Shown: one piece after another, positions 665-34,923 of the stretch
Numbering within the stretch: the stretch's first letter is position 1
Layout of the letters: the number at the start of each line of letters is the position of its first letter
Source of the DNA: an uncultured virus (IMG/VR IMGVR_UViG_3300028903_000203)
Taxonomy: Duplodnaviria; Heunggongvirae; Uroviricota; Caudoviricetes
Strand: one strand, 5' to 3'
Length of the DNA stretch: 45,595 nt
Virus record (IMG/VR): IMGVR_UViG_3300028903_000203
The notes under the pieces: model-generated
Told to the model about the DNA's origin: nothing
Databases searched by the model: none
Seen by the model: the letters and a program-made list of their open reading frames with translations, nothing else
Made by a program: the position numbers and the translations under genes

Positions 665-1762
665 ATGTCGTGCAAGAACATCTGGGAACAAGAGCTAGCT
701 GGCCGGCTGGAATGGACCACCCGCGTGGCTGCCGCGCAGGTCGATGGCGGGTGGCGGTGTGACCACGCTGGCTGCACCGCCCTGGTCAACCGGGCTACCA
801 ATGCCTGCGTGCGGGGCCATGCGCAAGGCAGCAGTGCGCCGACCTACCAAGCGGAAGTTGGAGCGCTACTGTGTCTGACGGAAGAACTGGAGCAACGCGA
901 CTTGCTGCGCCGGGGCTTTACGAAAAAGCGACGGCGGCTGATCCGGGACTACCCCGCTGGGATCACCGGGGAAGTCGGACCTCTGGGCGAGGATGGTCTG
1001 GGCGACGTCCTCACGGTGGTGGGGCGGGTCATCCGGACGTTGCGGGCTGAACCCGCCGCCGCTCTGGACGGCGACCCCCGGCTACAGGTCGCCCGAGCGG
1101 CGTATCGGCTGGGCGTATGGACCAAACTGGAGGCCCTGTGGCGGGCCCGCGCGACTGATCTGCCCCTCCCGGCCATGTCGGAGGAGCTGCCCTCCGACCC
1201 GACAGCAGCAGCCCCGGTGGCACAAGCGGCGGTGCGAGCAGCGACCGGGGTGGACAGCTTCACGGTGACAGTGCGCGACGGTGAACTGTGCCTGGGCATC
1301 GGCACAGAACAGGACTGGGGGCTAGGGGCGCGGGCCCACACCGCGGTCGAGCAAGCCGGGTACGACCGCTTAGGATTACGGCCGGCCGCTGGCGAGAACC
1401 GGATCGGCCCCGGTTGTGCCATCAACCCGGGGGAATGGGGCACCACTTGGGGGCCCCGCTTACGAGCAGCAGCGCGACAGCGCTTGGCGTACCAAGCCGA
1501 CCCGCTGGCGACCGCCCCGCCATACCTGTGCGTGGTGTTGCAACAGGCCCTGGGGGTCTATCGGCGCACGGGGGACATCATCCTGGCTACCCGCGACAGC
1601 CTGGGGTTTGGTATCGGGGCCCGGCGCGCGGTGGAGATGGAGCGGTGGCTGGACGCCATCTCCCATCCCCTGGCTTGGCGCACGGGTTGGACCAGGGATG
1701 AAGCCCGCTTCAAGCTGCTGGTGCGCGAACTGGCGGGGGAGAGAGTGGACTACGACTCGTAG
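665..1762 (+). CDS. MSC-leader family protein 1 (subtype A), unknown C-terminus
   Basis: MSCKNIWEQELAGRL..RVAAAQVDG..RCDHAGC..LVNRATNAC..GH; YQAEVGALLC and GDPRLQVAR motifs. Confidence 0.85.
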   Translation: MSCKNIWEQELAGRLEWTTRVAAAQVDGGWRCDHAGCTALVNRATNACVRGHAQGSSAPTYQAEVGALLCLTEELEQRDLLRRGFTKKRRRLIRDYPAGITGEVGPLGEDGLGDVLTVVGRVIRTLRAEPAAALDGDPRLQVARAAYRLGVWTKLEALWRARATDLPLPAMSEELPSDPTAAAPVAQAAVRAATGVDSFTVTVRDGELCLGIGTEQDWGLGARAHTAVEQAGYDRLGLRPAAGENRIGPGCAINPGEWGTTWGPRLRAAARQRLAYQADPLATAPPYLCVVLQQALGVYRRTGDIILATRDSLGFGIGARRAVEMERWLDAISHPLAWRTGWTRDEARFKLLVRELAGERVDYDS

Positions 1763-1775
1763 CCGGAGGCGTGCG

Positions 1776-3968
1776 ATGTCCTGTAAGGACTTCTGGGAAA
1801 AAGAGATGGCGGGCCGGTTGGCGGGGCCGGCGCGGGTCGCGGCCGGCCAGGTGGATGGGGCGGAGCACTGTGTTGTACCTGGCTGCCCCCAACTTGTAAA
1901 TCGGGCCACCGGGCGCTGTGTCGGTGGCCATGTCCAATATCGTCGCCAGACCCCTGACCAGGCCCGGGCGTTGGTCGAGGCCCTGGCGTGCTGCACCCGC
2001 GAGCGGCGCGCGGTGCGCGGCGCGGGGACGCCGGCAATTGACTCACCGGCTGATGCTTGTCTCCGGTTTGCCACCTATGCCGCAGCCCATGAACAGCCCG
2101 GCTGGAAGCGGGCGGCGGTGCAGGCCATGTTGGGAAGGGCGGAGGACGAACTGCGGCGTGGCCTTGCTATTTCCGATGCCCGGATACAGGCCGCCCGAGC
2201 ATTTCTGGCTGTCCCTCTGCCCGCGCGGGCCCCGGGCGCGGGCCCTGACTGGGCGGACTATCAAATGGCGCAGGTCCAGGCTGCCATGAGCGATCCTGCC
2301 TACCAACAGCTCGTGGGCGGTGCGGAGCAGGTGATGCTGTATTGGGCGGCCCGTGCCACCTACGACCCACCGGGGGGCCTGTATCTTACAGCGCGGCGGG
2401 GTAACCGCCTGCACTCGGCCCGGTATGAAGAAGGCCAAGGTTGGCAGCTTGGCGAGCCGGTCGAGCATCCGGCGGCAGGCGAGTACATGGCGCAGCAGGC
2501 GCGTACCGCCCGTCGCAACGGGCTCCTTCTCGCCGAGCATTGCCCTGGCTGTGGACAGTTCGTGAGTTCCGACCGGGGCCATGCTTGCCCCGGCAAACTC
2601 GATGCCTGTGGGCGGGACGTGCGCCCCTTTGCCCGCTTGCTAGGGGAGATTATGGAGCCCCTGGAGCAAACGGAGTGGCCGGAGGAGTACGGCGTCGATG
2701 GCGAACAATTGGTCGCGGCGAAGCACGACTTGGAAGCGGCGCTGCGGGGGGAAGAGCCGCCAGGGTTGCCAGCGTCACTACGCTTTGTGTATACCGCGGT
2801 GCTGGAGCAGTCTGCTGAGGTCCACGAGCGACTCCTGCGGGACGCCGATGCTGAGGACTTTATCCATTTCGACGCACTGACCGACGAGGTGTACGGTGCC
2901 GTCGGGAAGTACGTGGCGGCAGTAACCGCGCCGCCTCCGTCGCTCAACGCTGACCCCGCTGTGGTTTTGCCACCCTGGAGTCCCCCGGAAACGCCTGCGG
3001 AAGCGGCCCTGGTTATCGGCAACATGTTGGAGGCGATCACGGGCCGGCCGTGGCAGGTGGAGGCGACAGAAACCGGGGTGCGGTTGGGGACGGAAGTGGT
3101 CCCCCGTACCCGGGCGGCGGCCAAAGACAGGAAACTCTTGGCCGTGCTGACCGAGGTGCCGCGCATCCTGCTCGGCAAGATCGAACTGCGGCAGGAGGAT
3201 TGGCTGCGCGTAGCGTACCGGCTGCGAGGTATCGTGGCCGGTCAGGCGCTGCTGCGCTCGCCGTGGGTCGTGACCCAAATCCCGGCGGCGCGCCAAATCC
3301 TGCGACAGCGCCGCGCTTATGAACATGACTTCGAGATTGCGGCCCGCAATCTGGCAGTACATGTGGCGGAGCAGGTACGGGGGGCCGGCAACGCCGAACA
3401 GCTACTCGCCAACTGTCGGGCGAACACGCTCGCGGACGCCCCTAATGCTCCCGGGGACTGGCAGTCCGTGTACGAAGTCTTGTACGGTTACGCGACGGCG
3501 CAGCAGCTCGCCGGCACCGCGCCAGCGCCGGAAGACGTGGTGCGCCAGGCCCAGGTCAATGTAGCCGCCGGAGTTATTCCGCAGGTCGGCCCCACGATCT
3601 TGCGGTCGCTTACCACTTTTCCCGAGCGCGGCGGGCCGGGTGCGGAGCTGGTGGTGATGGAGGACCTCATCAATCCGGCCGACGGGGCCGAGGACAAAAA
3701 CTGGCCGGTGCATACCTTCCGCCTGGAAACGGATGGCCGGATCGAACACACGGTGCGCTGGGCCACGTATGCGCAGGCCCATGCCTTGGTTGACGAGGCG
3801 CGGGGGGTGGCCGAGTCATTGGGTGTCGAGGGCTTGCTCCACTGTTTTTCCTGCGGGCTGCCTTACCGGACCTTGACCACATGCATGTGCGGTGAGAAGC
3901 GGTCGCGCCAGCGCCACTGGCCGGAAGGCTGGCCGCGGCACCAGCCGCTCAAGCCGCAGCCCGCGTGA
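1776..3968 (+). CDS. MSC-leader family protein 2 (subtype A), multidomain, with CPGCGQF..HACP and a C-terminal Zn-ribbon-like segment
   Basis: ATG at 1776 follows a GGAGG RBS; MSCKDFWEKEMAGRL leader. The ORF-track start at 1416 is an upstream extension. Confidence 0.85.
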   Translation: MSCKDFWEKEMAGRLAGPARVAAGQVDGAEHCVVPGCPQLVNRATGRCVGGHVQYRRQTPDQARALVEALACCTRERRAVRGAGTPAIDSPADACLRFATYAAAHEQPGWKRAAVQAMLGRAEDELRRGLAISDARIQAARAFLAVPLPARAPGAGPDWADYQMAQVQAAMSDPAYQQLVGGAEQVMLYWAARATYDPPGGLYLTARRGNRLHSARYEEGQGWQLGEPVEHPAAGEYMAQQARTARRNGLLLAEHCPGCGQFVSSDRGHACPGKLDACGRDVRPFARLLGEIMEPLEQTEWPEEYGVDGEQLVAAKHDLEAALRGEEPPGLPASLRFVYTAVLEQSAEVHERLLRDADAEDFIHFDALTDEVYGAVGKYVAAVTAPPPSLNADPAVVLPPWSPPETPAEAALVIGNMLEAITGRPWQVEATETGVRLGTEVVPRTRAAAKDRKLLAVLTEVPRILLGKIELRQEDWLRVAYRLRGIVAGQALLRSPWVVTQIPAARQILRQRRAYEHDFEIAARNLAVHVAEQVRGAGNAEQLLANCRANTLADAPNAPGDWQSVYEVLYGYATAQQLAGTAPAPEDVVRQAQVNVAAGVIPQVGPTILRSLTTFPERGGPGAELVVMEDLINPADGAEDKNWPVHTFRLETDGRIEHTVRWATYAQAHALVDEARGVAESLGVEGLLHCFSCGLPYRTLTTCMCGEKRSRQRHWPEGWPRHQPLKPQPA

Positions 3969-3979: not shown

Positions 3980-5338
3980 ATGTCCTGTAAGGACTTCTGG
4001 GAAAAAGAGCTGGCGGGCCGGCTGGCCGGTCCGAGCCGGGTGGCTCCCGGCCAGGTGGACGGCGGCCAGCGCTGCACCCGGCCAGGCTGCGACGCCCTGG
4101 TAAACCGGGCCGCCGGGCGTTGTGTCAAGGGCCACAGCCAGGGTGTTACCGAGGCCGGCTATCCGCAGGAGCTGGATGCCCTGCTGTGCCTGGCCGGGGA
4201 GTTGCGGGACCGGGGGCTGCTGTCGGCGGTGGATGAGGGCAGAGTGGTAGCCATCCAGGACTTTAGCCGTACCGCCCAGGAGCAGGCCGCTGGGGACGCG
4301 GGGCAGGTGGCGCAGGAGGGAGCGGAGGCCGTGGTTGCCCTCGTCAACCTGGTGGAGCGGGCCGAGTTCGCCCTTTCCCCGGAGGAAAGCGCGACACTGC
4401 ACGACGACCCACGGGTGCGGGCTGGGCGGTCCTTTGTGCATGCTGCCGCGCTGGAGTCGCTGCGGCAGGCATTAGGACCCTTGGGTGACCCCGAGGGTGG
4501 TGCAGAGCAGAGGGTCAATGAGCGGTTGGCGGAGGGGCTGGCCCAGAGTGCCCTCTCCCCAACGGATGGCCAATGTCGAACGCTGAAATACCGCTGCCAG
4601 ACAGGGGTGACTTTCGTGCGCAGCATGCGGGAGGCGCTGGCGTACCCCGGCGAAGCGCGTACTCAGCCGCGTCGCTGGTTGCAACGATTGTTGGGGCTCC
4701 GGGCCATGGCGCAGATGTGCAACGCCCCGGTGGCCGAGCCACGGGAAGAAGCGCGTTTTCGAGCGGTCGTGTCCGATACGGTGAACGGAATGTATCCCGG
4801 CCCCGACCCGTTGGAGGACGGGCGGGAAGCGCTGGGACCGCTGGGCGCGGCCGAACGCGCTCTACAACGCTGCTGGCGGCAGGTAAGGAATGACGCGGCC
4901 CGGTTTCCCCTGGCCCTACTGCGGGCGGTGGCCGCGGAGGACGGGATGCCGTATGCCCAGTATGCCTCGCGGCAGTTGATCCTCCACTGGGCCGCTAACA
5001 CAACGGAGCACAGCCTGTACCGCGAGATTCTGAACACACTGGGCCAGGGCCGACACAAAGAGATGGCTGCGGCGGGCGCAGATGGGGCTATGCGGGTTTG
5101 GCGGCAGGGGGAGCGCGTGCGCTTTACCGACCCCGATGGAAGCGAGCTGCGGGGCGAGCTGCGGGTGTGTCAGTTGCAAATCACCTCGCTGGGGGGGAGT
5201 GCCAGCCACTACGCGGGGGCCGACACTGATGTATTGGTGCCAGCGGGGAATGTTCTGCTACGCGGCGGCCCACAAAGCGGGTGGTCGAGGACCGTTCCGT
5301 TAGCTTGGCTGACGGTGGAGACCAGCGATGAGCTGTAA
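3980..5338 (+). CDS. MSC-leader family protein 3 (subtype A) with shared SH3/KOW-like C-terminal module
   Basis: ATG at 3980 follows GAGGAGG. The tail GADGAMRVWRQGERVRFTD..GEL is shared with ORFs 8624, 10786 and 12851. Confidence 0.85.
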   Translation: MSCKDFWEKELAGRLAGPSRVAPGQVDGGQRCTRPGCDALVNRAAGRCVKGHSQGVTEAGYPQELDALLCLAGELRDRGLLSAVDEGRVVAIQDFSRTAQEQAAGDAGQVAQEGAEAVVALVNLVERAEFALSPEESATLHDDPRVRAGRSFVHAAALESLRQALGPLGDPEGGAEQRVNERLAEGLAQSALSPTDGQCRTLKYRCQTGVTFVRSMREALAYPGEARTQPRRWLQRLLGLRAMAQMCNAPVAEPREEARFRAVVSDTVNGMYPGPDPLEDGREALGPLGAAERALQRCWRQVRNDAARFPLALLRAVAAEDGMPYAQYASRQLILHWAANTTEHSLYREILNTLGQGRHKEMAAAGADGAMRVWRQGERVRFTDPDGSELRGELRVCQLQITSLGGSASHYAGADTDVLVPAGNVLLRGGPQSGWSRTVPLAWLTVETSDEL

Positions 5339-5794
5339 GAAGTGGTGGCAGAAGGTCGTGACCGCCTTATACAGGCTACCAAGATCGCTCCGGCGTGTGT
5401 GGACGGAGCGCTGCGGTGCCAATGCGGTGCGCCGCTGCACAAGGATGGTTCGTGCCCGCAAGGCCATGCTGCGGCCGGCTTGGGCGCGGTGGGCAACCTG
5501 TTGGTGAGCGAGGCGCGCATCCTGAGCATACAAGCAGAGGTCTGGGGCGAGGGCGCGCGGCTAGTCCAGGCCGCCCCGCTCTATGGGTCGTTCAACACTC
5601 CCGCGGGGCAAGCACTCGCCGGTTACGTGCCCGACGTAGTGCGGACCGCGCTGCGTCGACTGGTACTGGCGACGGTGGGTGAGCATGTAGGCCATGCGAG
5701 CCATGCTGCGCCGGCCCGCCGGAAGCACCGTCGGGGGCCAAGAAAGGACCGCCCTGCTGGGGTAGAGCCACCTGTCACCGCAGAAGAGACCTAA
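5328..5794 (+). pseudogene. MSC-leader family protein 4, frameshifted after codon 3-4 (or a sequence error)
   Basis: GGAG RBS then ATG AGC TGT AA|GAA GTG. Restoring one base gives MSCKEVVAEGRDRLIQATKIAPACVDGALRCQCG..CPQGH, in register with subtype B (L14, K19, I20). Confidence 0.7.
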
Positions 5795-5806: not shown

Positions 5807-7081
5807 ATGAGCTGCGCGGGTGAGAAGAAAAGACAATCGGCGGGATTACGGGCGGCATCGCGTATCGCGGGCAGCCAGGTGGATGGGGCCGCCCGGTGTC
5901 TTTACCCCGGCTGCAACCAACCGCTCAACACGCGGCAAGAGTGTCCGGGCGGCCACAGCCAGTGTCCGGAGGATGTGGCCCGTGCGCTCGTGAAGGCGGC
6001 ATATAACTTGCAAAGCACGCGGTCGTTTGGTCTGGATCGCCAGGCCAACGTGGTTCTGGCGCAGCAGTATGCGCGGCTGGCGCTGGATGTGGCGCTAGAG
6101 CTTGGCGCAGCCGAGTTGACCCAGCACGCCCATGCGCTCCTGGGTGATGGACCGATAGTGGGTTCGCCGCCTGCGGCGATAACGAACCTGTTTGCCGGTC
6201 TGGCCGCCGACGAGTTCGTGGTGAGTACGGACGATGCCGACCGGCTCGACGATGCGCTGCGCGCGAGCATCGGGCGACACTGGGGCCGGTGGACTCAGGG
6301 GAGCAGCGTGGGACGCTGCTGTGTCGTGCGCAATTGGGCGGGACCCGCGATGCGGGCGCGGGTGCTGGCGGTTATCGCCGGCCAGCGGCTAGGCCGCGTA
6401 GTGGCTTCCCCGCAGGATGTAAGGCTGGCGGATTTGCCACCGACGGTGCAACGGCTGGTCGTCCTGCCTGAGCCACTAGCCGCGCCGGTGCTGCCCAAAG
6501 CCGCAGCGGCTGGCAGAGAGCAGACGCCCAAGGGCGACCGGCAGGCGGCTGGCCCCGAGCTGGCAGGACAAGAACTGCGTGCGGCTATCGCTCGCTATGG
6601 TGAGGAGATCAGGGGCAGCCAGGTCGGAGCCGCTGTCGTCGGCGCGAAGCTTGGACGATTGGCGGAGCAAGCGGCCCGGCAGGGCCAAGACGATCTGGCG
6701 CGCGAAGCGTGGTGGTGGCAAGCGGAGGCGTACTGCCGGGTGGAGATGGTCGCGTCCTGGAAAGCTGTCGCCGGGGATGAGGCGGCGCGCAAGGTGCGGA
6801 TGGCCCAAGCCTACAACGCGGCCGTGCAAGCGGGCCATGGGGGGGCCGCTATGACCGCCTTGCTGTACCTGGCGCGTTTGCACCTCGGTGAACCTCCTGA
6901 CGTGGCTGCGGCCGAGCGCTATTTGGGCCGGGCTAGAGTGGTGGCCGCGCGGCTCGCCGCCATCGCTGGCGCGCCCTATGCCCGCCAGATGGAGGATTGG
7001 AGGGCCCACATGCGGGCCCTCGTGGAGCTGGCGCGGCGGGCCAGTCGTCCGGCAGCAGCGGGCTTACGCGAGGCATGCTAG
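5807..7081 (+). CDS. MSC-leader family protein 5 (subtype B) with TPR-like helical C-terminus
   Basis: MSCAGEKKRQS..RIAGSQVDGAARCLYPGCNQPL..CPGGHSQCPEDVARAL; helical segment AMTALLYLARL..AERYLGRA. Confidence 0.85.
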   Translation: MSCAGEKKRQSAGLRAASRIAGSQVDGAARCLYPGCNQPLNTRQECPGGHSQCPEDVARALVKAAYNLQSTRSFGLDRQANVVLAQQYARLALDVALELGAAELTQHAHALLGDGPIVGSPPAAITNLFAGLAADEFVVSTDDADRLDDALRASIGRHWGRWTQGSSVGRCCVVRNWAGPAMRARVLAVIAGQRLGRVVASPQDVRLADLPPTVQRLVVLPEPLAAPVLPKAAAAGREQTPKGDRQAAGPELAGQELRAAIARYGEEIRGSQVGAAVVGAKLGRLAEQAARQGQDDLAREAWWWQAEAYCRVEMVASWKAVAGDEAARKVRMAQAYNAAVQAGHGGAAMTALLYLARLHLGEPPDVAAAERYLGRARVVAARLAAIAGAPYARQMEDWRAHMRALVELARRASRPAAAGLREAC

Positions 7082-26355: not shown

Positions 26356-27402
26356 ATGATGGCTGACAATCACCTGGCAAAGATGCAACGAGGTTGGCTC
26401 CTGCCATATCTGAGTCAGCTTGACGTTCTAGCTCGGCCCGACAAAGGCTACGAGGGCCACGGCCGCTGGGCCTATTGGCTCGACGCCTGCGAGCGTGGGG
26501 TCGTGCCGGAAGCGCCGATCCCATCCATCGAGTTCACGATGTGGCCCAATGAAGAAGCGGTGGCGCACATCAAGGAAGTCCTGGACGTGTATGTGGGCCG
26601 GGGGTACTGGTATGATGACGCCTGGCTGGTTCTGGTGAAGTGGCTCTTGCACGGCTTTGGCCGGTGGGGGCTGGAAGAAGAGGTGGAGCGCATCCCCGCC
26701 GATGTGCGCAACCAGTGGTACGAGCTGTTCGACCTGAGCTGGCTCCTGCGCCGCCCGGCCCCGGATTGGAGTGCCTACATCCTGCAAGGTTGCCCCCGCT
26801 GGATGAACCAGAAGGGTGGGGCCCGCTGGGCCAAGTCGACCGCGTTCTTTGCCACACCCATAAACGTGAGCCGCATGATGGCGGAGATGACCTTTTGCGG
26901 GATTGATCCGGAAGAAGCCAAGGTGCAGAGCGTGTGTGACCCGTGCGTGGGCACCGGAGGCATGCTGCTGGTGGCGAGCAACCACAGTCTGTTGCTCTAC
27001 GGGATGGATATTGTCTCTGACCTGTGCTTATGCACGGAACTGAACGGTTGGCTCTGGGCTCCCTGGATGGTCTATATGCCGGACGCCATGCGCCAGGTCT
27101 TGGAGCGGGCCCGGTGGGACACCTTGCCGCTGGATGCGCAGCCCGCCGTGCTCGGGCTCAGCGAAACGGTCCCGGTGATCCGGCTAGAAACCGAACCGGC
27201 CAAGGTCGCGGCGGTACAAGCGTATCGCCGGGGCGAGCTGAGCCAGAGTGAGATGATCGCGGCCACCCTGGGTAGAAGCACAGACTCTGCGGCGGAGAAG
27301 CCGGCGCAGTCGGCCGAGCTGACAGCTCCTCCTGCGGCCCCGGCCAGAGCTGTCCGCGGGCGCAAGAGCGGGCGGGCGACCAGCGCCAGTGCCGCAAGAT
27401 AG
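26356..27402 (+). CDS. N6-adenine DNA methyltransferase-like protein (SAM-binding half only)
   Basis: FFATPINVSRMMAEM, SVCDPCVGTGGMLL, LYGMDI; no NPPY/F motif seen. Confidence 0.75.
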   Translation: MMADNHLAKMQRGWLLPYLSQLDVLARPDKGYEGHGRWAYWLDACERGVVPEAPIPSIEFTMWPNEEAVAHIKEVLDVYVGRGYWYDDAWLVLVKWLLHGFGRWGLEEEVERIPADVRNQWYELFDLSWLLRRPAPDWSAYILQGCPRWMNQKGGARWAKSTAFFATPINVSRMMAEMTFCGIDPEEAKVQSVCDPCVGTGGMLLVASNHSLLLYGMDIVSDLCLCTELNGWLWAPWMVYMPDAMRQVLERARWDTLPLDAQPAVLGLSETVPVIRLETEPAKVAAVQAYRRGELSQSEMIAATLGRSTDSAAEKPAQSAELTAPPAAPARAVRGRKSGRATSASAAR

Positions 27403-28119: not shown

Positions 28120-29838
28120 ATGAGCTGCAAAGACGAAGCGGAAAAGGAAGCCGGCGCACTCGAGCCACAAACGCGCGTGGCCGGGAGTCAGGTCAACGGG
28201 CAGCCGATTTGCCCCTATCCGGGCTGTAGCCAACCCCTGGACGCCCAATTGAATTGCCCGCGCGGCCACAGTCAATGCCCGGCGGACAGGGCGCGGGCAC
28301 TGCTGGCCGAGATCGAGGAGATATGGCAAAGCCAGGCGCTGACAGTAGATACGGTTGTGCGCGGCAACAGCCTAGAGCTAGCAGGCGCGTACCTCGTGGT
28401 GGCGCGGAGAGCGGCGCAAGAGTCAGGCCAGAGCGCGTTGGTCAAACGGGTGGCGCGGTACGAGCAGGCTATGCAGGGCGCTGCGGCGGCGGGCCAGGCC
28501 CCCTGGTCCGAGCGAGTCCGGCAGCGTGTCGGCCAGGTGCTGGCGGCGGGTCGCGCCTGGCTCGACTGGCGGGCGCAAGGGGGGACGCCCCCGGCGACCG
28601 CTGCGCAGCGGCGGCAGTGGCGGGCCATGTTTGGGTCTTCCTCCCCGGACGCCCAGACGGTGGCACGGCACGTCCAGCAGGCGGTGCGGGCCAGCGCTGA
28701 CCTCACTGACGATCCATTGGAAGTGGAAGCACGGGCGCTGCGGGACACGGCGGCGGTGCGGATGCTTTTGGACCAGGCGGGCGACGCCATGGGCCAACCA
28801 GCACCGGGCAGCATTGCCGTGGCCTATGCCCAGACGGCGCTGCAAGTAGCTACGGAGCGCCAGCGGTCTGATCTGCGGGCCCAAGCCCGGCCCGTCTTAC
28901 GCCAGGCGCTGGTGCGGGAGTGGCTCGGCGAGCGCGGGCTCCAGCAGCGGATGGCCGACATGGGCTCCCAGATGGAGCTGGTTCTCGCCGCCCCCCAGGT
29001 AGGGGCATTGGCAGATGAGCCGGCCCTCGCTCGGGGCGTGCTGACCGCCGTCTGGATGGAGGGAGGACCGCTGTCGGCAACTGCGGGCGCGTTGTGGGAC
29101 AAGACGCTCCCCGCGCTCTGCATGGGCTGGCGACACCAGATACGGGACGCCGGGTTGGGCGACTTTGATGAGCGTGACATCCGGAGGATGCTGGCGGAGT
29201 GGGCGTTCCGGCTGCGCCAAACTGGCCGGGGGGCCCTGGAGGAAGAAGAACTCGGCCGCCAGCCGGCCCACGAGGGACTGGTGGGCGAGGCCGGCGCGCT
29301 GGCCGCAGCGCTCCGGCAGATCAGTGTGGGCCCCGGCCAGACGGGGCCGTTGGTGGCCGTTGGCCCGCGCTACGCTTTCTTGTCCCCAGTTTTGGAGGCA
29401 GCGCTAGTGGCGCAGCACGTGAGCCGCCTACCGCTGGGCGAGCCGGCCCGCTTGGTCGAAGCGGACCGGCCCCGGTGGGGCGAGGCGTTTGCCGTGGCGA
29501 TGGAGCTGCGTACCGCTCGCGGGCTTTGGGAAAACGCGGTCGCCGAGATCGCCGCGCTGTTACCCCCAGTTACGGCGGCCCATCGGGGCAAAGAGCAAGC
29601 CCTCCGGGTAGCCTTGGCGGTGGAAACGCTGGCGCGCACCGGGTTGTGTGGTCGGGAAAAGGAGGCCCGGGAAATAGCGCGGCAGTTGCAGGTCTGGCTT
29701 CAGCAGAGCCCCCCGTTGGGCGTGGCCTCCGCTTTCTGGGAAGAGGGGCGGCTGGGGGAAGCGCGCCAGGCGGTGGCGGCTCTGCTGGTCCCCACGCCGG
29801 GCCCATCGCCCCTAGTCAGTCCGAGGACCACCGGCTAG
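28120..29838 (+). CDS. MSC-leader family protein 11 (subtype B) with degenerate NACHT/STAND helical-winged-helix region
   Basis: MSCKDEAEKE leader; LADEPALA, RMLAEWAF, RYAFLSPVLEAALVA, RWGEAF; no Walker A. Confidence 0.85.
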   Translation: MSCKDEAEKEAGALEPQTRVAGSQVNGQPICPYPGCSQPLDAQLNCPRGHSQCPADRARALLAEIEEIWQSQALTVDTVVRGNSLELAGAYLVVARRAAQESGQSALVKRVARYEQAMQGAAAAGQAPWSERVRQRVGQVLAAGRAWLDWRAQGGTPPATAAQRRQWRAMFGSSSPDAQTVARHVQQAVRASADLTDDPLEVEARALRDTAAVRMLLDQAGDAMGQPAPGSIAVAYAQTALQVATERQRSDLRAQARPVLRQALVREWLGERGLQQRMADMGSQMELVLAAPQVGALADEPALARGVLTAVWMEGGPLSATAGALWDKTLPALCMGWRHQIRDAGLGDFDERDIRRMLAEWAFRLRQTGRGALEEEELGRQPAHEGLVGEAGALAAALRQISVGPGQTGPLVAVGPRYAFLSPVLEAALVAQHVSRLPLGEPARLVEADRPRWGEAFAVAMELRTARGLWENAVAEIAALLPPVTAAHRGKEQALRVALAVETLARTGLCGREKEAREIARQLQVWLQQSPPLGVASAFWEEGRLGEARQAVAALLVPTPGPSPLVSPRTTG

Positions 29839-29856: not shown

Positions 29857-30444
29857 ATGAGCTGCACAGGCGAGAAGAAGAGCCAGGCGGGATCATTGGA
29901 GGAAGCCTCCCGCATCGCTAGCGCCCAGGTCAACGCCGCACCCGTTTGCCAGCACTCCGGGTGCGGCCAACCGCTCGACGCCCAACAACAGTGTCCGCGC
30001 GGCCACGGCCATGAGGATGGAGCGGCGGAGGAACACCCGGAACGGGAGCCCCGCGGGCAGAGCAGGGAGGCTGAACTCAGTACCTTGCGGGCGGCTCTAC
30101 TGCGCCGGCACGCAGGCATCGAGTTGTGGATCAATCTGTCGGCCAGCGGGCATCTGGTAGTGGGGAAGATTGTGGTGCCCCGGGAGCAGCGGGGTAGAGG
30201 CATCGGCTCGGCGATTATGCAAGAGCTGGTCGCCGTAGCGGACAGGTGGGGTGTGCCGATGGCGCTGACCCCGGATCGCACTTTTGGTGGCAGCGTGAGT
30301 CGCTTGCGGGAGTTCTACCGCGGCTTTGGTTTTGTGCCCAACAAGGGGCGGGCCATGGACTACACGACATTAGAAACGATGGTCCGTCCGGTGCCGCCCG
30401 GTCGGAAAGCGGCGGAGAGTGTCGCCCCAGGAGAACAACGATGA
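29857..30444 (+). CDS. MSC-leader family protein 12 (subtype B) with C-terminal GNAT acetyltransferase
   Basis: KIVVPREQRGRGIGSAIM (acetyl-CoA motif A) and LREFYRGFGFV (motif B). Confidence 0.88.
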   Translation: MSCTGEKKSQAGSLEEASRIASAQVNAAPVCQHSGCGQPLDAQQQCPRGHGHEDGAAEEHPEREPRGQSREAELSTLRAALLRRHAGIELWINLSASGHLVVGKIVVPREQRGRGIGSAIMQELVAVADRWGVPMALTPDRTFGGSVSRLREFYRGFGFVPNKGRAMDYTTLETMVRPVPPGRKAAESVAPGEQR

Positions 30445-31577
30445 GCTGCACGGGTGAGAAGAAGAAACAATCGGAGGTATTGGCGCAAGCCAGCAAGATC
30501 GCGGGCAGCCAGGTCAGCGGGGCCGCGGTCTGCATGTATCCCGGCTGCAACCAGCCGCTGGACGCGCAGCAAGAGTGCCCGCGCGGCCACAGTCAGTGCC
30601 CCACGGACGTGGCGCGGGCGCTGCTCGCGCCAGCGCTGCGCTGGCGCGCGGGTGACGATGACGGTCGCTATAGCTGGGCATCCATGCACCATTGGGCGGC
30701 CCTGGCGCGGGAAGTAGCTGCGGAGCAGGGGGACGCCGAGTTGGCGGTGGAGGCCGAGCGGATCGCGGGGTGGGCGGAACGCTGTGTGGCGTCGCCGGAC
30801 ATCCCCCTGGACACCGCGAAAGGACCGCAGCGGGGGCGGCCCATTGCAACGGCGCGGCTGGGCGTGCCCTGCCACCGTCTGGCCGCGGGGCAAGTGGGGG
30901 CGGTCGCCCGCTGTTATCGGGACGACTGTAGGGCTCCAATCGCCCGCGGCACGGGCAAGTGCGTGCGGGGGCATCCGCAGGGTGAGGAGCAGCCGGCCCC
31001 AGACGCGGCGATGCCCACGGTCGAGACCCTGGGCCGCATGCTGGCCCAACAACTGGGTCTGGACGACCTGCGCATCAGCGTCGTGGACGATCTCTCGCGG
31101 GGTGCGGAAACCATCGTCTTTGCCCTGCCCACCAGTGCTTTGACCGCGGCGCAACAGCAGCAGGTGATCGACCAGCTCGAGCCGACCTTGCGCCAGCTCG
31201 GCCAGCCGGGTTACTGGCGCGTCAGAGAGGGCCGGCTTGTGGTAGAGGGGGTGTCTCGGGGCGCAACCAAGGTATTGTATCAAGAGTTGGCCGCGCAAGA
31301 GGCCCGGGCGCAGAACGCCGCGGCGGGCTATGTGCAGCCCTTGCGGAAGCAGATGGAAAGGGCTGGTAGTCTTCGGCAAATCTCGGACTCCGCCCTCTTC
31401 CGACATATCCAGACCGCGTATTGGCATCTGTCCACCGCAGAGTACGCGCATCTGTGGCGCTTTTTGGTGGATGAGGCAGGTATCTGTCCCGACTGCCATC
31501 GGCCTCTGACGAAAGAGAAGCTTTGCAGCCATGGTCACATTGTGAGCACGCCACACGCGCCTCAGCCGCTGTACTAG
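30441..31577 (+). CDS. MSC-leader family protein 13 (subtype B) with a second internal leader-like finger
   Basis: ATG at 30441 (ATGA overlap); internal RLAAGQVGAVARCYRDDC..GKCVRGHPQ; terminal CPDC..LCSHGH. Confidence 0.85.
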   Translation: MSCTGEKKKQSEVLAQASKIAGSQVSGAAVCMYPGCNQPLDAQQECPRGHSQCPTDVARALLAPALRWRAGDDDGRYSWASMHHWAALAREVAAEQGDAELAVEAERIAGWAERCVASPDIPLDTAKGPQRGRPIATARLGVPCHRLAAGQVGAVARCYRDDCRAPIARGTGKCVRGHPQGEEQPAPDAAMPTVETLGRMLAQQLGLDDLRISVVDDLSRGAETIVFALPTSALTAAQQQQVIDQLEPTLRQLGQPGYWRVREGRLVVEGVSRGATKVLYQELAAQEARAQNAAAGYVQPLRKQMERAGSLRQISDSALFRHIQTAYWHLSTAEYAHLWRFLVDEAGICPDCHRPLTKEKLCSHGHIVSTPHAPQPLY

Positions 31578-31630: not shown

Positions 31631-33238
31631 ATGAGTTGCACTGGCGAGAAGAAAAACCAGTCGGAAGTCTTGGCGCGAGCCAGCAAGATAGCGGGCGGCC
31701 AGGTCAGCGGGGCCGCGATCTGCCTCTATCCCGGCTGCAACCGGGCCCTCAACGCGCAGCAGGAGTGCCCGGCCGGCCACAGCCAGTGCCCCACGGACGT
31801 GGCGCAGGCGTTGCTGGGGGGGCCGCTGGCCCAGTGGCGGCAGGAAGGCACCTACACGAAGCTGACGGTCGCCGAGTGTATGCAGGCGCTGCGGAATGCG
31901 GAGGCCGCGCTGAGCATCGCTACCCAGTTGGAACTGGCCGACTTGGCGCAACAGGCGCAGGCGGCTATCCAATGGGGGCACGCCGACCTAGCTGAGCAAG
32001 AGGAGAACGGCGTTTGTGACACTTGGCAGAAGGGGAATGGAACCTGGGTGGCCATGCCCCGCTTTGGGCCGGCGTTTTGTGGCACGGGGGAGACGGAGGA
32101 TGAGGCGCTCTCTGACCTGGAGCAGATGTTGGAGCAAGCCGGGGGGAATCCCCTACCTTCCGTCCCGACTCCTATGGAGGAGCAAGTGGAACGGGCAACC
32201 CGGCTAGCACGTCTTAGACCGGACTCTTCGGCCTATCAGTCATTCATTTTGTCTGACGCTGAGATTGCTACAGCGAGGCAAGCGTTGCAGAGGGTGGGGC
32301 TTACAACGTGGGACAGGTATACGAACAGAGAGACCCTGACTCCCCATCTATTAGCTCTCGAAGCGGGCGGGGGCAACTCGCAAACTGCTGAATACCGGCG
32401 TGCAGCGGAGGTGATCTACGCCGCGCTAACCGCCGTTGCTGAAACGGAGCGGGAAGGGGCCGGCCCCCCGGTGATTCCCGAGCTACAGGCCGAAATGATG
32501 ACCGCAGCCTGGGTCGCAAAAAGGCACACAAAGAAGAAGGAATCTGCTGCGGTGGAGCCTCTGCCCCGCGAACTCCTGGGCATGCCCGAAGCCGAGTTTC
32601 AGGACATCGTGGACCGGGCGGTGGATTGGTACTATCTGCGGGTCCAGTCCGGCGGCATGGCCACCAAGTCGGAGTGCGAACTGTGGCTCATGGCGCAGTA
32701 TAACCTGACCCCTACGGCCGCCCGCGAGGTCACCAACTTCGCCGAAAGCCATGACAGCTCTTACCGTATCGGCAGTGGTGCGGGCAACATCAGTTGGCGG
32801 AGCCGCGAGCGGCCGGCCCCAACCACCCTACCCCCGCTCCCGCAAGTGGCTTATCCAGTGGCTCTCGACGGGGCGGTACGGGCAGCACGGCGCGCCCGCA
32901 GGGTGGACGATCTGCCCCGCTACCCCGGCCAAGAGGCGTACCGCGCGCCCACCGGCTACGAGCCCGAGCGCGGCGCTACGGCGGCGGATGTGGTGCGCTT
33001 TGAGATGGAGGAGCTGGGCAACGACTTGGTGGTGTCCCCGGCTATCCGAGCGGCGCTGGGCCAATTCCCAGCTACGCGACTGGTGTGGGTCGCACGCACC
33101 CCCGGAGTGGCAGCCCGCTACGGCGAGCGCGCGGGACACGAGACAGAGAGCACCCCCGTCGAAACGCTGGCCATGGGGGAGCCTGACCTGATCGTAGCCA
33201 CCGACGGTGAAGATGGCTACCTGGTGCTGCGGGGGTGA
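31631..33238 (+). CDS. MSC-leader family protein 14 (subtype B) with HicB-like segment and possible ART-like tail
   Basis: Leader; GTWVAMPRFGPAFCGTGETEDEALSDL; AYR..LVWVARTPGVAARYG. Confidence 0.85.
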   Translation: MSCTGEKKNQSEVLARASKIAGGQVSGAAICLYPGCNRALNAQQECPAGHSQCPTDVAQALLGGPLAQWRQEGTYTKLTVAECMQALRNAEAALSIATQLELADLAQQAQAAIQWGHADLAEQEENGVCDTWQKGNGTWVAMPRFGPAFCGTGETEDEALSDLEQMLEQAGGNPLPSVPTPMEEQVERATRLARLRPDSSAYQSFILSDAEIATARQALQRVGLTTWDRYTNRETLTPHLLALEAGGGNSQTAEYRRAAEVIYAALTAVAETEREGAGPPVIPELQAEMMTAAWVAKRHTKKKESAAVEPLPRELLGMPEAEFQDIVDRAVDWYYLRVQSGGMATKSECELWLMAQYNLTPTAAREVTNFAESHDSSYRIGSGAGNISWRSRERPAPTTLPPLPQVAYPVALDGAVRAARRARRVDDLPRYPGQEAYRAPTGYEPERGATAADVVRFEMEELGNDLVVSPAIRAALGQFPATRLVWVARTPGVAARYGERAGHETESTPVETLAMGEPDLIVATDGEDGYLVLRG

Positions 33239-33252
33239 GTAGGAGAACGACA

Positions 33253-34923
33253 ATGAGCTGTAAGGACTACTGGGAACAGGTTGTCGCGGGAAAGCTATCC
33301 AGCCCCACCCGGATCGCTACCGGCCAGGTAGACGGGGGCCTGCGCTGTGTCTGGCCGGGTTGCACGGCGCTGGTCAACCACGGCACAGGCTACTGCATGC
33401 AGGGCCACCGGCAAGAGGCCCAGGAATCGCGGGCAGAGCGTTCTCCGGGCACGCCCGAGGAATTGCACGGCTTGCTGTGTGCCTACAATGAGCTGAGGGT
33501 CAAAGACGTTGGGGTAGAGGCGGCAGTAGAGTTTTTGGGTTACGGCTATGAGTATACAGCCCAAGAGGGGTGGACTCACGGAATCGCGGCGGTACGCAGG
33601 CTGATGGCGTTCTTTGCCGCCTTGCCGCCAGGGGCCGGCGGAAAAGCGGCGGGGGAGTGGTCCAACGACCCCCGCGTGCGAGCGGCGCAGATGCTTCTCG
33701 AGCGCGTGGACAGGGAGGAGAAACGGCGCGTGGTCACCCTGGAGTACCCGGACAAGGAGCAATCACCAGGACGCTGGACCCGGGACGTGGCCCGCAGCTT
33801 GCGGGCGTTGACCGGCCGGCAGTTTACCGTGCGCGCCGGGGAGAGGCCCTATCACCGCATGCTCGAGATTCGCCCCGCCAACGGCCGGCAGTTCTCCCAG
33901 GAAGAATGGCGCAGCCTGGCGCGGGCCGGGCTGGTGGCAGCGGATTCTCCGCGCGAGGACGTCCTGCGGTTTCTCCAGCCGGCCCACTTTGGTCTGCATC
34001 TGCGGGCGATGGTGGCCGCACGAGCGGTGGGCACCCGGCTGGGGGAGCTGAGCGGCGGGGCCAACTGCGTCGCCTGGCCGCAGCACAACGGGGAGTGGCT
34101 GCTTATCAACGCCTGGGGGCCCGATGCGCAAGACGCGCTGCGGGGGCTGGGCGTGCCGCTGTATAAGCAGGAGGGCGAATGCCGCGCCTGGATTGCTCCA
34201 GACGTCGCCCTACAGTGGGCCGCCGCGTTTGACGCGGCGGTGGCCGTGGGTCGCGCCCTGCGTTTTGACCAGGAGAACCGGGCCGATGCGGAAACCCCCG
34301 CAGTCACCGTGGCTATCCAGTGGCCGTATGGCTTGCGCCTGCAAGGGGATGTCCCGGTCAAGCGCGTGTCGGCGGGCAAGACCGCAGAAGAGATTGCCCG
34401 CGCCAAGGTCGCGCGGGCCGATAAAGGCCACCTGGCCCCAGAAAGCATCGAGATTCTGAGTGTTCCGGCGGTGCTCCAAGCTGGGCCGCCCCGCTGCCCG
34501 CATTGCGGGCAGGAAGCGGCTGTCGGGCAGCACCACTGTACCTTACGCCCCGAGGCCGCTCACGCGGCGGCAGAATACCTGACGATGCGGGCCAAGATGA
34601 GAGGGGTCGTTGTGCAAGACCTGCGCTGGGTTAGCGACCCGCGCGGTGGGGTACACTATGTGCTCGGCGGAGTGGATGCAGACACCGGCCAGACGGTGGT
34701 GGAGCAAGGGGCGATTCGGGCCGACGGCTATCCGACCCCGACGCGAGCGCGGCGCTATGCTCCGCGCTCAGCCCAGTATGCACACGTTCTTGCTGGGCTG
34801 CGTGGGATCGGAATGCGCATCGGAAGCAATGTGTTGCCACCTCTGGACAAGCCCACGGGGGACGAAAACCACTGGCGGCCGGTGGAAGAGCCGCCCCAGA
34901 GTGAGTCTGGGACAGAGGGGTAG
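33253..34923 (+). CDS. MSC-leader family protein 15 (subtype A), unknown multidomain C-terminus
   Basis: AGGAG RBS; MSCKDYWEQVVAGKL..QVDGGLRC..GC..LVN..C..GH; NDPRVRAAQM; CPHCGQ..HHC. Confidence 0.85.
   Translation: MSCKDYWEQVVAGKLSSPTRIATGQVDGGLRCVWPGCTALVNHGTGYCMQGHRQEAQESRAERSPGTPEELHGLLCAYNELRVKDVGVEAAVEFLGYGYEYTAQEGWTHGIAAVRRLMAFFAALPPGAGGKAAGEWSNDPRVRAAQMLLERVDREEKRRVVTLEYPDKEQSPGRWTRDVARSLRALTGRQFTVRAGERPYHRMLEIRPANGRQFSQEEWRSLARAGLVAADSPREDVLRFLQPAHFGLHLRAMVAARAVGTRLGELSGGANCVAWPQHNGEWLLINAWGPDAQDALRGLGVPLYKQEGECRAWIAPDVALQWAAAFDAAVAVGRALRFDQENRADAETPAVTVAIQWPYGLRLQGDVPVKRVSAGKTAEEIARAKVARADKGHLAPESIEILSVPAVLQAGPPRCPHCGQEAAVGQHHCTLRPEAAHAAAEYLTMRAKMRGVVVQDLRWVSDPRGGVHYVLGGVDADTGQTVVEQGAIRADGYPTPTRARRYAPRSAQYAHVLAGLRGIGMRIGSNVLPPLDKPTGDENHWRPVEEPPQSESGTEG

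What the first reader, a model, noticed from the sequence alone, without database searches (positions are those of the whole stretch)
665..34923. MSC-leader family: 15 genes with one conserved Cys/His N-terminal tag and interchangeable payloads (candidate new polymorphic effector or cargo-loading system)
Seen: ORFs starting at 665, 1776, 3980, 5328 (frameshifted), 5807, 7137, 8624, 10786, 12851, 17816 (minus strand), 28120, 29857, 30441, 31631 and 33253 begin with MSC-x10/11-L-x4-[RK][IV]A-x2-QV[DNS]G-x3-C-x4-C-x9/10-C-x2-GH (with small deviations in a few members), then diverge into bodies of ~150-730 aa. Most have a clear RBS or are translationally coupled. Recognisable payloads are conflict-type: zeta-like kinase, GNAT, NACHT fragment, HicB-like segment. 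Established: a constant N-terminus with a variable toxic C-terminus defines polymorphic toxin systems (MuF, LXG, eCIS cargo), and zeta and GNAT domains occur in phage/plasmid polyvalent proteins. Inference: the leader is a Zn-binding sorting tag that loads these proteins into a virion, conjugation channel or complex for delivery to a new host. I do not recognise it as a named family.
Basis: partly seen in the sequence, partly recalled or inferred. Interest (0 to 1): 0.95.

Follow-up and report, generated by a model that had tools for sequence, protein, structure and literature searches.

The report
New zinc-finger-tagged protein family array
Half of this 45-kb stretch from a wastewater-sludge microbe or mobile element encodes proteins that all begin with the same small, undescribed zinc-finger domain and then continue into unrelated bodies. 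The pattern points to a shared addressing module, but its target is not known.

Summary
Fourteen intact ORFs, one frameshifted ORF and a sixteenth that runs off the left edge start with M-S-C, a helix, and a C-x4-C-x10/11-C-x3-H finger. These genes fill 22,886 of 45,595 nt.

A profile of the leader finds only 91 clusters among 1.84 billion representatives. In 85 of them the leader is at the N-terminus. Of 30 sampled, 23 lie on the same 449,756-bp contig as the window. Synonymous changes in the leader codons are abundant, so selection acts on the protein.

AlphaFold gives a compact helix / zinc knuckle / helix domain (pLDDT 85) with no solved-structure match. Bodies are mostly unrelated: only 25 of 284 pairs with at least 60% leader identity share a detectable body. 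Recognisable bodies include a zeta-type kinase, GNAT, HEAT, an AAA+ ATPase, SWIM, DNA ligase and a Tudor-like barrel.

There are no immunity genes and no delivery machinery in the window. NACHT and HicB are not confirmed. My best reading is a common docking domain, most likely binding nucleic acid or nucleoprotein (confidence 0.38). A virion or secretion loading tag remains possible (0.24). The family is new and its function is unproven.

The parts
3..605 (+). C-terminal 200 aa of a 16th family member (P0014, 544 aa). Its leader lies left of the window.
   Evidence: 100% identity to P0014 residues 345-544. P0014 starts MSCKDFWEKEMAGRL....
665..1762 (+). MSC-leader gene, type A, 365 aa, body unknown
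1776..3968 (+). MSC-leader gene, type A, 730 aa, body unknown
3980..5338 (+). MSC-leader gene, type A, 452 aa. The model shows the leader, an all-alpha domain (63-356) and a C-terminal SH3/Tudor-like beta barrel (361-440).
   Evidence: AF2 model pLDDT 83.5. Barrel matches have Z 7-8.5 or Foldseek probability about 1.
5328..5794 (+). Frameshifted family member. MSCKKWW is in one frame. The rest of the leader, the finger and about 100 further aa are in ORF 5342-5794.
   Evidence: The same sequence is present in contigs of two other runs.
5807..7081 (+). MSC-leader gene, type B, 424 aa, body unknown; no Pfam family
7137..8627 (+). MSC-leader gene, type A, 496 aa. The C-terminus holds an internal 122-nt tandem duplication that matches two PHROGs of unknown function.
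   Evidence: phrog_11556, phrog_23317; D9
8624..10747 (+). MSC-leader gene, type A, 707 aa. Its start overlaps the previous stop (ATGA).
   Evidence: It equals P0004, which lies on the 449,756-bp contig.
10786..12825 (+). MSC-leader gene, type A, 679 aa
   Evidence: The 5' 90 nt are 97-98% identical to the gene at 12851.
12851..14734 (+). MSC-leader gene, type A, 627 aa. It is the last gene of the left array.
16188..17816 (-). MSC-leader gene, type B, 542 aa, with a C-terminal zeta-toxin-type P-loop kinase (351-516, Walker A GVPGSGKS at 368)
   Evidence: PF06414 E 2.4e-21, 76.5 bits against a cut-off of 22.3. Walker A. Sigma-70-like site at 17884-17856.
28120..29838 (+). MSC-leader gene, type B, 572 aa, body unknown; no Pfam family. 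First gene of the right array.
   Evidence: Sigma-70-like site at 28041-28069.
29857..30444 (+). MSC-leader gene, type B, 195 aa, GNAT acetyltransferase body
   Evidence: PF13508 28.6 bits (cut-off 27) and PF00583 26.7 bits (cut-off 20.7). phrog_10691 E 1.7e-18.
30441..31577 (+). MSC-leader gene, type B, 378 aa, with a second finger core at aa 145-184 and a third finger-like motif near aa 349-367
31631..33238 (+). MSC-leader gene, type B, 535 aa, body unknown
33253..34923 (+). MSC-leader gene, type A, 556 aa. It is the last gene of the right array.
18531..27402 (+). Replication / recombination / DNA-modification module between the two arrays. It holds a small SWIM-like protein, an unknown 419-aa protein, a PD-(D/E)XK nuclease, SSB, a PAPS-reductase/SspD-like protein, a sliding-clamp-like protein and an N6 methyltransferase.
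34935..41003 (+). A wHTH / zinc-ribbon protein and two tandem 870/886-aa ParB-like plus methyltransferase paralogues, directly downstream of the right array
   Evidence: D5

Best explanation
This is a lineage-specific, very large paralogous family. It has at least 85 sequence clusters, most of them on one ~450-kb contig from wastewater sludge.

The constant first ~80 residues form a small zinc-stabilised domain. It consists of an amphipathic helix that starts at an invariant Cys3, a C-x4-C-x10-C-x3-H knuckle, and a second helix. This domain is fused, apparently by recombination at its 3' edge, to many unrelated bodies. These include enzymes (zeta/PNK-like kinase, GNAT, DNA ligase, AAA+, HAD-like), HEAT/TPR scaffolds, and helical plus Tudor-like proteins.

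I read the domain as a common addressing or docking module that brings all these bodies to one shared target. The most likely target is nucleic acid or a nucleoprotein complex, either of the element itself or of its host. There the bodies would act in DNA transactions or in element-host conflict.

What is shown:
- The family exists and is rare.
- The leader sits at the N-terminus.
- Selection acts at the protein level.
- The predicted fold.
- The bodies are heterogeneous.
- The neighbourhood is mobile-element-like.

What is inferred:
- Zinc binding.
- The docking function.
- The nature of the target.
For: Family and rarity:
- 91 clusters at E<=1e-3 among 1.84e9 representatives. In 85 the leader is N-terminal.
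- 23 of 30 sampled members lie on a 449,756-bp contig that also holds window proteins P0004 and P0213.

Conservation over 88 N-termini:
- C32, C37 and C48 are present in 88/88.
- C3 is present in 87/88.
- H52 is present in 83/88, with Cys in 4 others.

Protein-level selection: in leader comparisons, 7-19 of the 26-47 identical codons differ synonymously (type A, 48 codons) and 8-17 of 17-33 (type B, 40 codons). Ser2 uses both AGC and TCN codons.

Fold: the leader-only AF2 model built on an 87-row alignment has pLDDT 85.4. It shows helix 3-19, short strands at 40-48 and helix 65-80.

Modularity:
- Only 25 of 284 pairs with leader identity >=60% have BLAST-detectable bodies.
- Nucleotide identity peaks from about 15 nt upstream of the ATG to about nt 150-200, then falls to background.

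Pointers to a nucleic-acid or nucleoprotein target:
- Extra internal copies of the finger core alone occur in m30441, P0001, P0008, P0032, P0062 and P0075.
- The weak nearest neighbours of the finger are Zf_WRKY19, and the model's are EndoVII-cluster, A20 and ZNF265 fingers. Unrelated multi-finger hits of the leader profile score weakly on Pfam CxC6.
- CxxxxC-type zinc ribbons are described as accessory domains of phage HNH nickases (PMC3592412, abstract and passages).
- Payloads include an ATP-dependent DNA ligase, SWIM, a Mg-chelatase-type AAA+, and a PNK-like kinase hit.
- The commonest body family ends in a Tudor/KOW/PWWP-like barrel.
- Neighbouring genes are SSB, a nuclease, a clamp, methyltransferases and ParB-like proteins.
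Against: - No binding experiment and no complex prediction was possible.
- The strict position at residue 1 and the invariant M-[STNV]-C are not needed for an ordinary DNA-binding finger. They look more like a terminus-specific signal, or like chemistry at Cys3.
- HEAT and TPR bodies are protein binders.
- By my own count, which comes from no call, the type A leader consensus carries a net charge of only about +3.
- The finger similarities are all below curated thresholds.
- The two recognised enzymatic payloads match best to domains inside phage 'minor head protein' or giant polyvalent-type PHROG profiles. This fits the delivery rival.
Confidence: 0.38

Rival explanations
1. Loading or delivery tag. 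A packaging or export machine recognises the N-terminal module. The variable bodies are loaded into a virion or another vehicle and delivered to a new host cell. Analogues are the T4 capsid-targeting sequence and MuF-fused effectors.
For: - The leader is at the extreme N-terminus in 85 of 85 family clusters, and Cys3 is invariant. Internal copies lack the M-x-C helix.
- The only IMG/VR relative (L002, equal to P0022) starts beside a head-tail-joining gene and a tape-measure gene.
- The zeta-kinase body matches best to a PHROG 'minor head protein' profile. The GNAT body matches a 3,925-position PHROG profile of unknown function.
- Zeta-like kinases fused to MuF, and GNATs in polyvalent proteins, are described as probably packaged or delivered (PMC5512222, passages).
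Against: - No capsid, portal, terminase, T4SS or eCIS gene lies in the 45.6 kb.
- The arrays sit in a replication/modification neighbourhood behind sigma-70-like consensus sites, not in a late structural module (consensus matches only).
- No conserved protease-type cleavage motif follows the leader. GG follows the finger in only 4 of 14.
- Dozens of 400-700-aa proteins would be a very heavy cargo.
- The finger core is repeated internally in several members.
Confidence: 0.24
2. Oligomerisation hub. The leader would be a zinc-dependent homo- or hetero-dimerisation domain, functionally like insect ZAD domains or PE/PPE pairing. The two subtypes A and B, or Cys3 together with the helix Cys, would build intermolecular contacts. 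The family would then assemble into combinatorial complexes.
For: - There are two leader subtypes, interleaved in the arrays.
- Cys3 is a fifth invariant cysteine, beyond the four ligands that internal finger copies need.
- A Cys in the following helix is present in 45 of 88 members.
- A helix-knuckle-helix architecture recalls, from memory, the ZAD layout. ZAD dimerisation is described in PMC7913770 (search listing and abstract only).
Against:
- A and B genes are not paired one to one.
- There is no sequence or fold match to ZAD or PE/PPE.
Confidence: 0.15
3. Regulatory N-terminal switch. The Cys3/zinc domain would sense redox state or metal, or act as a degradation or processing tag. This would control the stability or activity of all family members together.
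For: - Cys3 is invariant next to a residue 2 that is S or T in 79 of 88, which from recalled knowledge allows Met removal. Asn in 5 of 88 is borderline.
- The domain is cysteine-rich.
Against: - There is no direct evidence.
- No dedicated protease or chaperone gene is recognised in the window.
Confidence: 0.08
4. The conserved 5' end is mainly a DNA-level feature, such as a recombination or regulatory cassette, and has no protein function of its own.
For: - Nucleotide identity starts about 15 nt upstream of the ATG and includes the RBS. It ends sharply at 150-200 nt.
- The pair 10786/12851 is 97-98% identical over the first 90 nt, while the proteins are 36% identical overall. This indicates local gene conversion.
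Against: - Many synonymous differences occur at conserved codons, and Ser2 switches between the AGC and TCN codon families.
- Ligand residues are invariant across members as little as ~25% identical to the reference leader.
- The predicted fold is confident.
Confidence: 0.03

Closest known systems
Zf_WRKY19 (Pfam PF24906), and from recall the short C-x4-C...C-x2/3-H zinc ribbons that accompany phage HNH/EndoVII nucleases
   Same: - The ligand pattern and spacing of the finger core are the same, including the G-C knuckle.
- 2 of 14 leaders hit PF24906 weakly, at E 0.036.
- The six non-family hits of the leader profile are multi-finger proteins. P0044 and P0077 score on Zf_WRKY19, and P0058, P0087 and P0091 score on CxC6.
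- ESM Atlas structural neighbours include WRKY19-finger and EndoVII clusters, all under that tool's bar.
   Different: - Scores are below the Pfam cut-off.
- Those fingers are internal and repeated.
- They lack the M-x-C amphipathic helix, the RVAxGQVDG motif and the following helix that define this leader.
T4 internal proteins with a capsid-targeting sequence, and MuF-fused polymorphic or polyvalent phage proteins
   Same: - The logic is the same: a constant N-terminal part and variable bodies within a mobile element.
- Zeta-type kinase and GNAT domains occur in both. PMC5512222 passages were read. PMC3012670 and PMC9026906 were seen only in the search listing.
   Different: - There is no MuF domain, and no Pfam or PHROG head-protein match on the leader.
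- There is no structural-gene neighbourhood in the window.
- The T4 CTS is, from recall, a ~10-residue cleaved peptide, not an 80-residue zinc domain.
Polymorphic toxin systems (Zhang et al. 2012, PMC3482391; abstract and passages read)
   Same: - The N-terminus is conserved and the C-termini are variable.
- The genes are arranged in arrays.
- There is evidence of recombination at the junction.
   Different: - No immunity genes. Gaps between members are -11 to 59 nt.
- The bodies are 150-680 aa and mostly not toxin-like.
- No known trafficking domain or secretion system lies nearby.
PE/PPE families of mycobacteria and ZAD-C2H2 families of insects (functional analogies only)
   Same: - They are large lineage-specific expansions.
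- An N-terminal ~80-180-aa domain is constant and the rest varies.
- There are two N-terminal subtypes (PE/PPE), or a zinc-binding N-terminal domain (ZAD).
   Different: - There is no sequence or structural similarity.
- The organisms are different.
- The functions of those N-domains (T7SS export, dimerisation) were not tested here.
~35-copy zinc-ribbon expansion in Bacillus phage G (PMC7824862, passage read)
   Same: - It is a lineage-specific expansion of a zinc-binding module in a very large mobile genome.
- The authors propose that it acts as a transcription factor or a structural DNA binder.
   Different: - No relationship was tested, because I had no sequence of that family.
- The members here are long multi-domain proteins with the module strictly at the N-terminus.

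Membership tests
Polymorphic toxin system | Cognate immunity gene directly downstream of each toxin gene | tested here: not met
   Gaps between consecutive members are -11 to 59 nt, so no intervening ORF can fit.
Polymorphic toxin system | C-terminal domain is a recognisable toxin | tested here: inconclusive
   One of the 14 intact window members has a toxin-type domain, the zeta kinase in m17816. Twelve of the 14 have no Pfam family at E<=0.01. Relatives carry HEAT, TPR, AAA+, SWIM, HAD-like and ligase domains.
Polymorphic toxin system | Known N-terminal trafficking domain, or a secretion apparatus encoded nearby | tested here: not met
   No Pfam, NCBIfam or PHROG hit to a trafficking domain falls on the leader. 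No secretion or structural genes lie in the window. The rest of the contig could not be read.
MuF / capsid-targeted phage proteins | MuF (SPP1 gp7) domain or a head-protein profile on the constant part | tested here: not met
   No such hit falls on any leader. The PHROG 'minor head protein' hit covers only the kinase body of m17816.
MuF / capsid-targeted phage proteins | Gene located within or next to the head morphogenesis module | tested here: inconclusive
   In the window this is not the case. In the IMG/VR relative L002 the gene starts next to a head-tail-joining gene and is divergently oriented.
Zf_WRKY19 (PF24906) | HMM score at or above the Pfam gathering threshold (27 bits) | tested here: not met
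   Two of 14 leaders match, and only at E 0.036.
Zf_WRKY19 (PF24906) | C-x4-C ... C-x2/3-H ligand pattern | tested here: met
   C32, C37 and C48 are present in 88/88 and H52 in 83/88.
Zeta toxin kinase (PF06414), for m17816 only | HMM above the cut-off and an intact Walker A | tested here: met
   76.5 bits against a cut-off of 22.3, E 2.4e-21. GVPGSGKS at residue 368. No epsilon-type antitoxin gene was looked for beyond the Pfam scan of neighbours.
GNAT acetyltransferase, for m29857 only | HMM above the cut-off | tested here: met
   PF13508 scores 28.6 bits (cut-off 27). PF00583 scores 26.7 bits (cut-off 20.7).
NACHT NTPase (claimed fragment) | Pfam NACHT match or a P-loop in a family member other than the zeta kinase | tested here: not met
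   No Pfam hit at E<=1 in 12 members, and none at E<=0.01 in all 14. The regex G....GK[ST] matches only m17816.
HicB-like antitoxin (claimed segment) | Pfam HicB-family match | tested here: not met
   No hit at E<=1 on the whole protein or at E<=10 on residues 120-190 of m31631. The only resemblance is by eye, in the motif ...PRFGPAFCGTGETEDEAL....

The most novel reading that the evidence does not exclude
The M-x-C zinc-finger leader is a new kind of protein address label. A dedicated machine of a giant mobile element (a huge phage, megaplasmid or similar) recognises the free N-terminus with its invariant Cys3, possibly through a shared metal site or a covalent step. It then loads dozens of unrelated cargo proteins for co-transfer with the DNA. 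This would be a bacterial counterpart of capsid-targeting sequences, but built on a folded zinc domain and used on an unprecedented scale. The family fills about half of this window and counts 80-plus sequence clusters, most of those sampled on one contig.
Probability: 0.22. Interest if true: 0.85.

Novelty: new variant of a known kind. Interest (0 to 1): 0.62.

Why it matters
If the leader is an address label, the family would be a ready-made catalogue of what one large mobile element sends to a single destination. That destination could be DNA, a particle or a complex. An 80-residue portable tag of this kind could also be tested as a tool.

Even without a known function, this is a clean example of domain-level concerted evolution. 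A 5' cassette is kept constant by selection and local gene conversion, while the bodies turn over.

It also adds an undescribed zinc domain. The domain combines a helix, a CCCH knuckle, a second helix and an invariant Cys3. It is almost confined to one wastewater lineage, and dark-matter surveys could easily miss it. Only 91 of 1.84 billion representative sequences carry it.

Tried and rejected
Whole genome: none is held for this window, so the rest of the 450-kb contig could not be inspected.

Collection scans for relatives:
- Genome contigs (185,579 species) gave one locus, L001. It is an out-of-frame chance match inside a large gene.
- Metagenome contigs gave nothing with the A2 and A3 alignments.
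- IMG/VR gave one true locus, L002. A3 and A5 gave nothing there.
- A back-translated GQVDG-x3-C-x3-GC pattern matched 12 loci. Only the L002 contig is real.
- The ParB-like/methyltransferase protein and the 419-aa protein have no relatives in IMG/VR.

Similarity searches:
- Megablast of 18-28 kb against plasmids and phages found no match.
- tblastn of m8624 and of the clamp-like protein against phages found no match.
- PADLOC found nothing on any MSC protein.
- PDB sequence searches with the leader profile and the body profile found nothing below E 0.2.
- ESM Atlas gave no usable feature hit. Its structural neighbours were all under the bar.
- Foldseek and VIA on the leader model found no match at E<=0.001 or Z>=2.
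- A word-based search with the m8624 body (residues 150-707) found only the protein itself.
- Rfam found no family in the window.

Tools not available:
It was accepted later.
- Model coordinates are not exposed, so Cys-Cys distances were not measured.

Read laying:
- The joints between leaders (for example 1813 to 4034) carry other letters in between. I read them as other paralogues' leaders, not rearrangements.
- Parts without cover in runs X4-X6 carry no meaning.
- Contigs from the RNA library lie on several MSC genes, but DNA carry-over cannot be excluded.

Taxon hints are weak and conflicting:
- Named relatives of the histidine kinase, at about 30% identity, are Chloroflexota MAGs.
- SSB is closest to Vibrio-type SSB, at 56%.
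- Named relatives of the L002 tape-measure protein are Planctomycetota MAGs.

Earlier findings of this scan: nothing for this genome or sequence. The word search returned only unrelated zinc-finger arrays.

Literature: searches for a described equivalent found none. This is not proof that none exists.

Full report
**Observation.** Translating from each of the 15 stated starts gives MSC.... Fourteen ORFs are intact (195-730 aa). The one at 5328 leaves its frame after MSCKKWW, and the rest of its leader and finger is read in ORF 5342-5794. Contigs from two other public runs carry the same frameshifted sequence with no differences. ORF 3-605 is the C-terminal 200 aa of P0014, another MSC-leader protein, so the array continues to the left. 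An alignment of the 14 leaders has M1, S2, C3, L15, A22, V26, C32, G36, C37, C48 and H52 invariant. The members fall into two subtypes, A with 8 genes and B with 6. The genes occupy 22,886 of 45,595 nt. They are separated by -11 to 59 nt, and 13 of the 14 plus-strand starts have an SD-like core 8-11 nt upstream.

**How rare it is and where it occurs.** A profile of the 60-residue leader, searched against 1.84 billion representative proteins, finds 91 clusters at E<=1e-3. In 85 of them the leader is at the N-terminus. The other six are unrelated multi-finger proteins. Residue 2 varies (S 71, T 8, N 5 of 88). C3 is present in 87 of 88, the exception being an N-terminally shorter protein. C32, C37 and C48 are present in 88 of 88, and H52 in 83. 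Of 30 clusters looked up, 23 lie on a contig of 449,756 bp. That contig also carries the window's own m8624 and its histidine kinase. The other seven sit on contigs of 8-34 kb. One genome per species for 185,579 species gave no true hit. JGI metagenome contigs gave none. IMG/VR gave one. The window's DNA recurs, nearly identical, in activated-sludge and anaerobic-digester runs of several studies.

**The leader is a protein domain, not a DNA signal.**
- In pairwise leader comparisons, 7-19 of the 26-47 identical codons in type A (8-17 of 17-33 in type B) differ synonymously, and Ser2 is encoded by both AGC and TCN codons.
- AlphaFold2 on residues 1-90 of m8624 with an 87-row family alignment gives pLDDT 85.4. 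The model has helix 3-19, short strands around 40-48 and helix 65-80.
- Foldseek against the PDB finds nothing better than E 4 (A20 ZF7, ZNF265 finger). VIA-align finds nothing at Z>=2.
- Pfam, PHROGs, NCBIfam, PADLOC and PDB sequence searches give no significant hit on the leader.
- The only weak signal is Zf_WRKY19, in 2 of 14 leaders at E 0.036. WRKY19-finger and EndoVII clusters appear among ESM Atlas neighbours, and multi-finger hits of the leader profile score weakly on Pfam CxC6; all are below the bar.
- Six members carry extra internal copies. These contain only the finger core (profile positions ~22-58, from position 10 in one P0075 copy) and never the M-x-C helix.

The finger therefore belongs to a widespread C-x4-C...C-x2/3-H class. 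The N-terminal extension with Cys3 is what is specific to this family. Because internal copies manage with four ligands, Cys3 is a fifth conserved thiol with a separate, unknown role. By its i, i+4, i+8, i+12 spacing with W7, V11 and L15 it lies on the hydrophobic face of helix 1. This is my reading of the sequence. No coordinates were available to check it.

**Bodies.**
- Among the 14 intact window members, Pfam recognises only a zeta-toxin-type kinase (m17816, E 2.4e-21, Walker A intact) and a GNAT (m29857).
- Relatives carry HEAT repeats, TPR, a Mg-chelatase-type AAA+, SWIM, HAD-like, an ATP-dependent DNA ligase and DUF6573.
- A single-linkage group of 34 shares a body. More than 40 are singletons.
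- Of 284 pairs with at least 60% leader identity, only 25 share a detectable body.
- The m3980 model (pLDDT 83.5) shows the leader, an all-alpha domain and a C-terminal SH3/Tudor/KOW-like barrel. The barrel matches have Z 7-8.5 and Foldseek probability about 1, but E above 0.01.
- Nucleotide identity between paralogues peaks from about 15 nt upstream of the ATG to nt 150-200 and then falls to background. The neighbours 10786 and 12851 are 97-98% identical over their first 90 nt, although the proteins are 36% identical overall. The leader is thus kept uniform by selection plus local gene conversion. It probably serves as the recombination handle through which bodies are exchanged.

**Surroundings.** Between the two arrays lies a replication, recombination and modification module. 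It holds a SWIM-like protein, a PD-(D/E)XK nuclease, SSB, a PAPS-reductase/SspD-like protein, a clamp-like protein and an N6 methyltransferase. Downstream lie a wHTH / zinc-ribbon protein and two 870/886-aa ParB-like plus methyltransferase paralogues. The best phage match of the latter is a 485-kb uncultured phage, at 25% identity. No capsid, tail, terminase, T4SS or eCIS gene is in the window. The single IMG/VR relative (a HEAT-repeat member, P0022) starts next to a head-tail-joining gene and a tape-measure gene and is divergently oriented. Sigma-70-like consensus sites precede m17816 and m28120. These are pattern matches only.

**Mechanism.** The data establish a portable, folded, probably zinc-binding N-terminal domain joined to unrelated bodies. 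That is best explained by a common docking or addressing function.

I place the most weight on a nucleic-acid or nucleoprotein target (0.38), for four reasons:
- The finger core is multiplied inside some members.
- Its weak relatives are nucleic-acid-associated fingers.
- Several bodies are DNA or RNA enzymes, or Tudor/KOW-like.
- The neighbours are DNA-transaction genes.

The strict N-terminal position and the invariant Cys3 are not explained by this reading. They keep the loading-tag idea alive (0.24), together with the L002 context and the PHROG affinities of the kinase and GNAT bodies. PMC5512222 describes zeta-like kinases fused to MuF and GNATs in polyvalent proteins.

An oligomerisation hub (0.15) and a regulatory switch (0.08) cannot be excluded. 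A purely DNA-level cassette is contradicted by the synonymous-site pattern (0.03).

**Comparison and novelty.** The organisation, a constant N-terminus with variable bodies in arrays on a mobile element, is a known kind. Examples are T4 capsid-targeting sequences, MuF fusions, polymorphic toxins and PE/PPE. The defining features of those families were tested and not met: there are no immunity genes, no MuF domain and no known trafficking domain. The tag itself is undescribed, and no paper found by four searches describes it. I rate it a new variant of a known kind. It is a real and unusual family, but its function is unproven and its distribution is, so far, narrow.

Noticed in passing
window 603-642, 14732-14771, 24821-24860, 34932-34971 (also 14872-14881 and 15042-15051): A motif, GCTTTACTGCGA, marks operon borders. 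It occurs before m665, after the last gene of the left array, before the clamp-like gene, and after the last gene of the right array. At 14737-14762 it is a perfect palindrome, GCTTTACTGCGAnnTCGCAGTAAAGC. Only the perfect copy folds strongly as RNA (-28.3 kcal/mol, z -5.8). There are seven matches to the 10-mer, against 0.97 expected. It could be an operator, a promoter element or a terminator.
   Followed up: partly
window 35688-38300 and 38343-41003: These are two tandem ParB-like plus methyltransferase paralogues, 52% identical as proteins. Their first ~300 nt are 97% identical (repeat D5). This is the same 5'-end homogenisation seen in the MSC genes, which suggests frequent local gene conversion in this element.
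   Followed up: partly
window 31722-31799 (-): ARAGORN calls a tRNA-Arg(CCT) on the minus strand, inside the leader-coding part of m31631. Rfam finds no tRNA there and none of the other leaders gives such a call. It is probably a false positive.
   Followed up: partly
window 18531-18860: A 109-aa SWIM-like protein (CxC...CxH) is similar to a five-fold repeated region inside P0063, an MSC-family member with a SWIM domain, and to P0015. Body modules of the family therefore also exist as stand-alone genes nearby.
   Followed up: no
window 18970-21827: An unknown 419-aa protein, a PD-(D/E)XK nuclease and an SSB with a C-terminal ...EEDLPF tail lie in a row. This looks like a phage-type recombination module. 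The 419-aa protein may be the annealing protein, but it has no family hit.
   Followed up: no
window 18201-18229 (+): A perfect sigma-70 consensus (TTGACA, 17 nt, TATAAT) lies about 300 nt upstream of the replication/recombination module. The region 14.7-18.9 kb has a lower G+C content (0.61-0.62) and few convincing genes.
   Followed up: no
window 8301-8422 and 8475-8596: A 122-nt tandem duplication (79% identity) lies inside the C-terminus of m7137. It corresponds to two matched stretches of PHROGs 11556 and 23317, both of unknown function.
   Followed up: no
window 34935-35663: The annotated start overlaps the border motif. A start at about 34998 (MGRCPGCQ...) would lie 59 nt downstream of the motif, as at the other copies. 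The protein combines CxxC pairs with an Rv2175c-type wHTH/excisionase-like domain.
   Followed up: no
L002 1-7565 (IMG/VR contig): This is a siphovirus-like tail module: tape measure at 1226-3445(-) and head-tail joining at 6710-7087(-). The named relatives of its tape-measure protein are Planctomycetota MAGs. G+C is 57%, against 67% in the window, so the MSC family is not confined to one host genome.
   Followed up: partly
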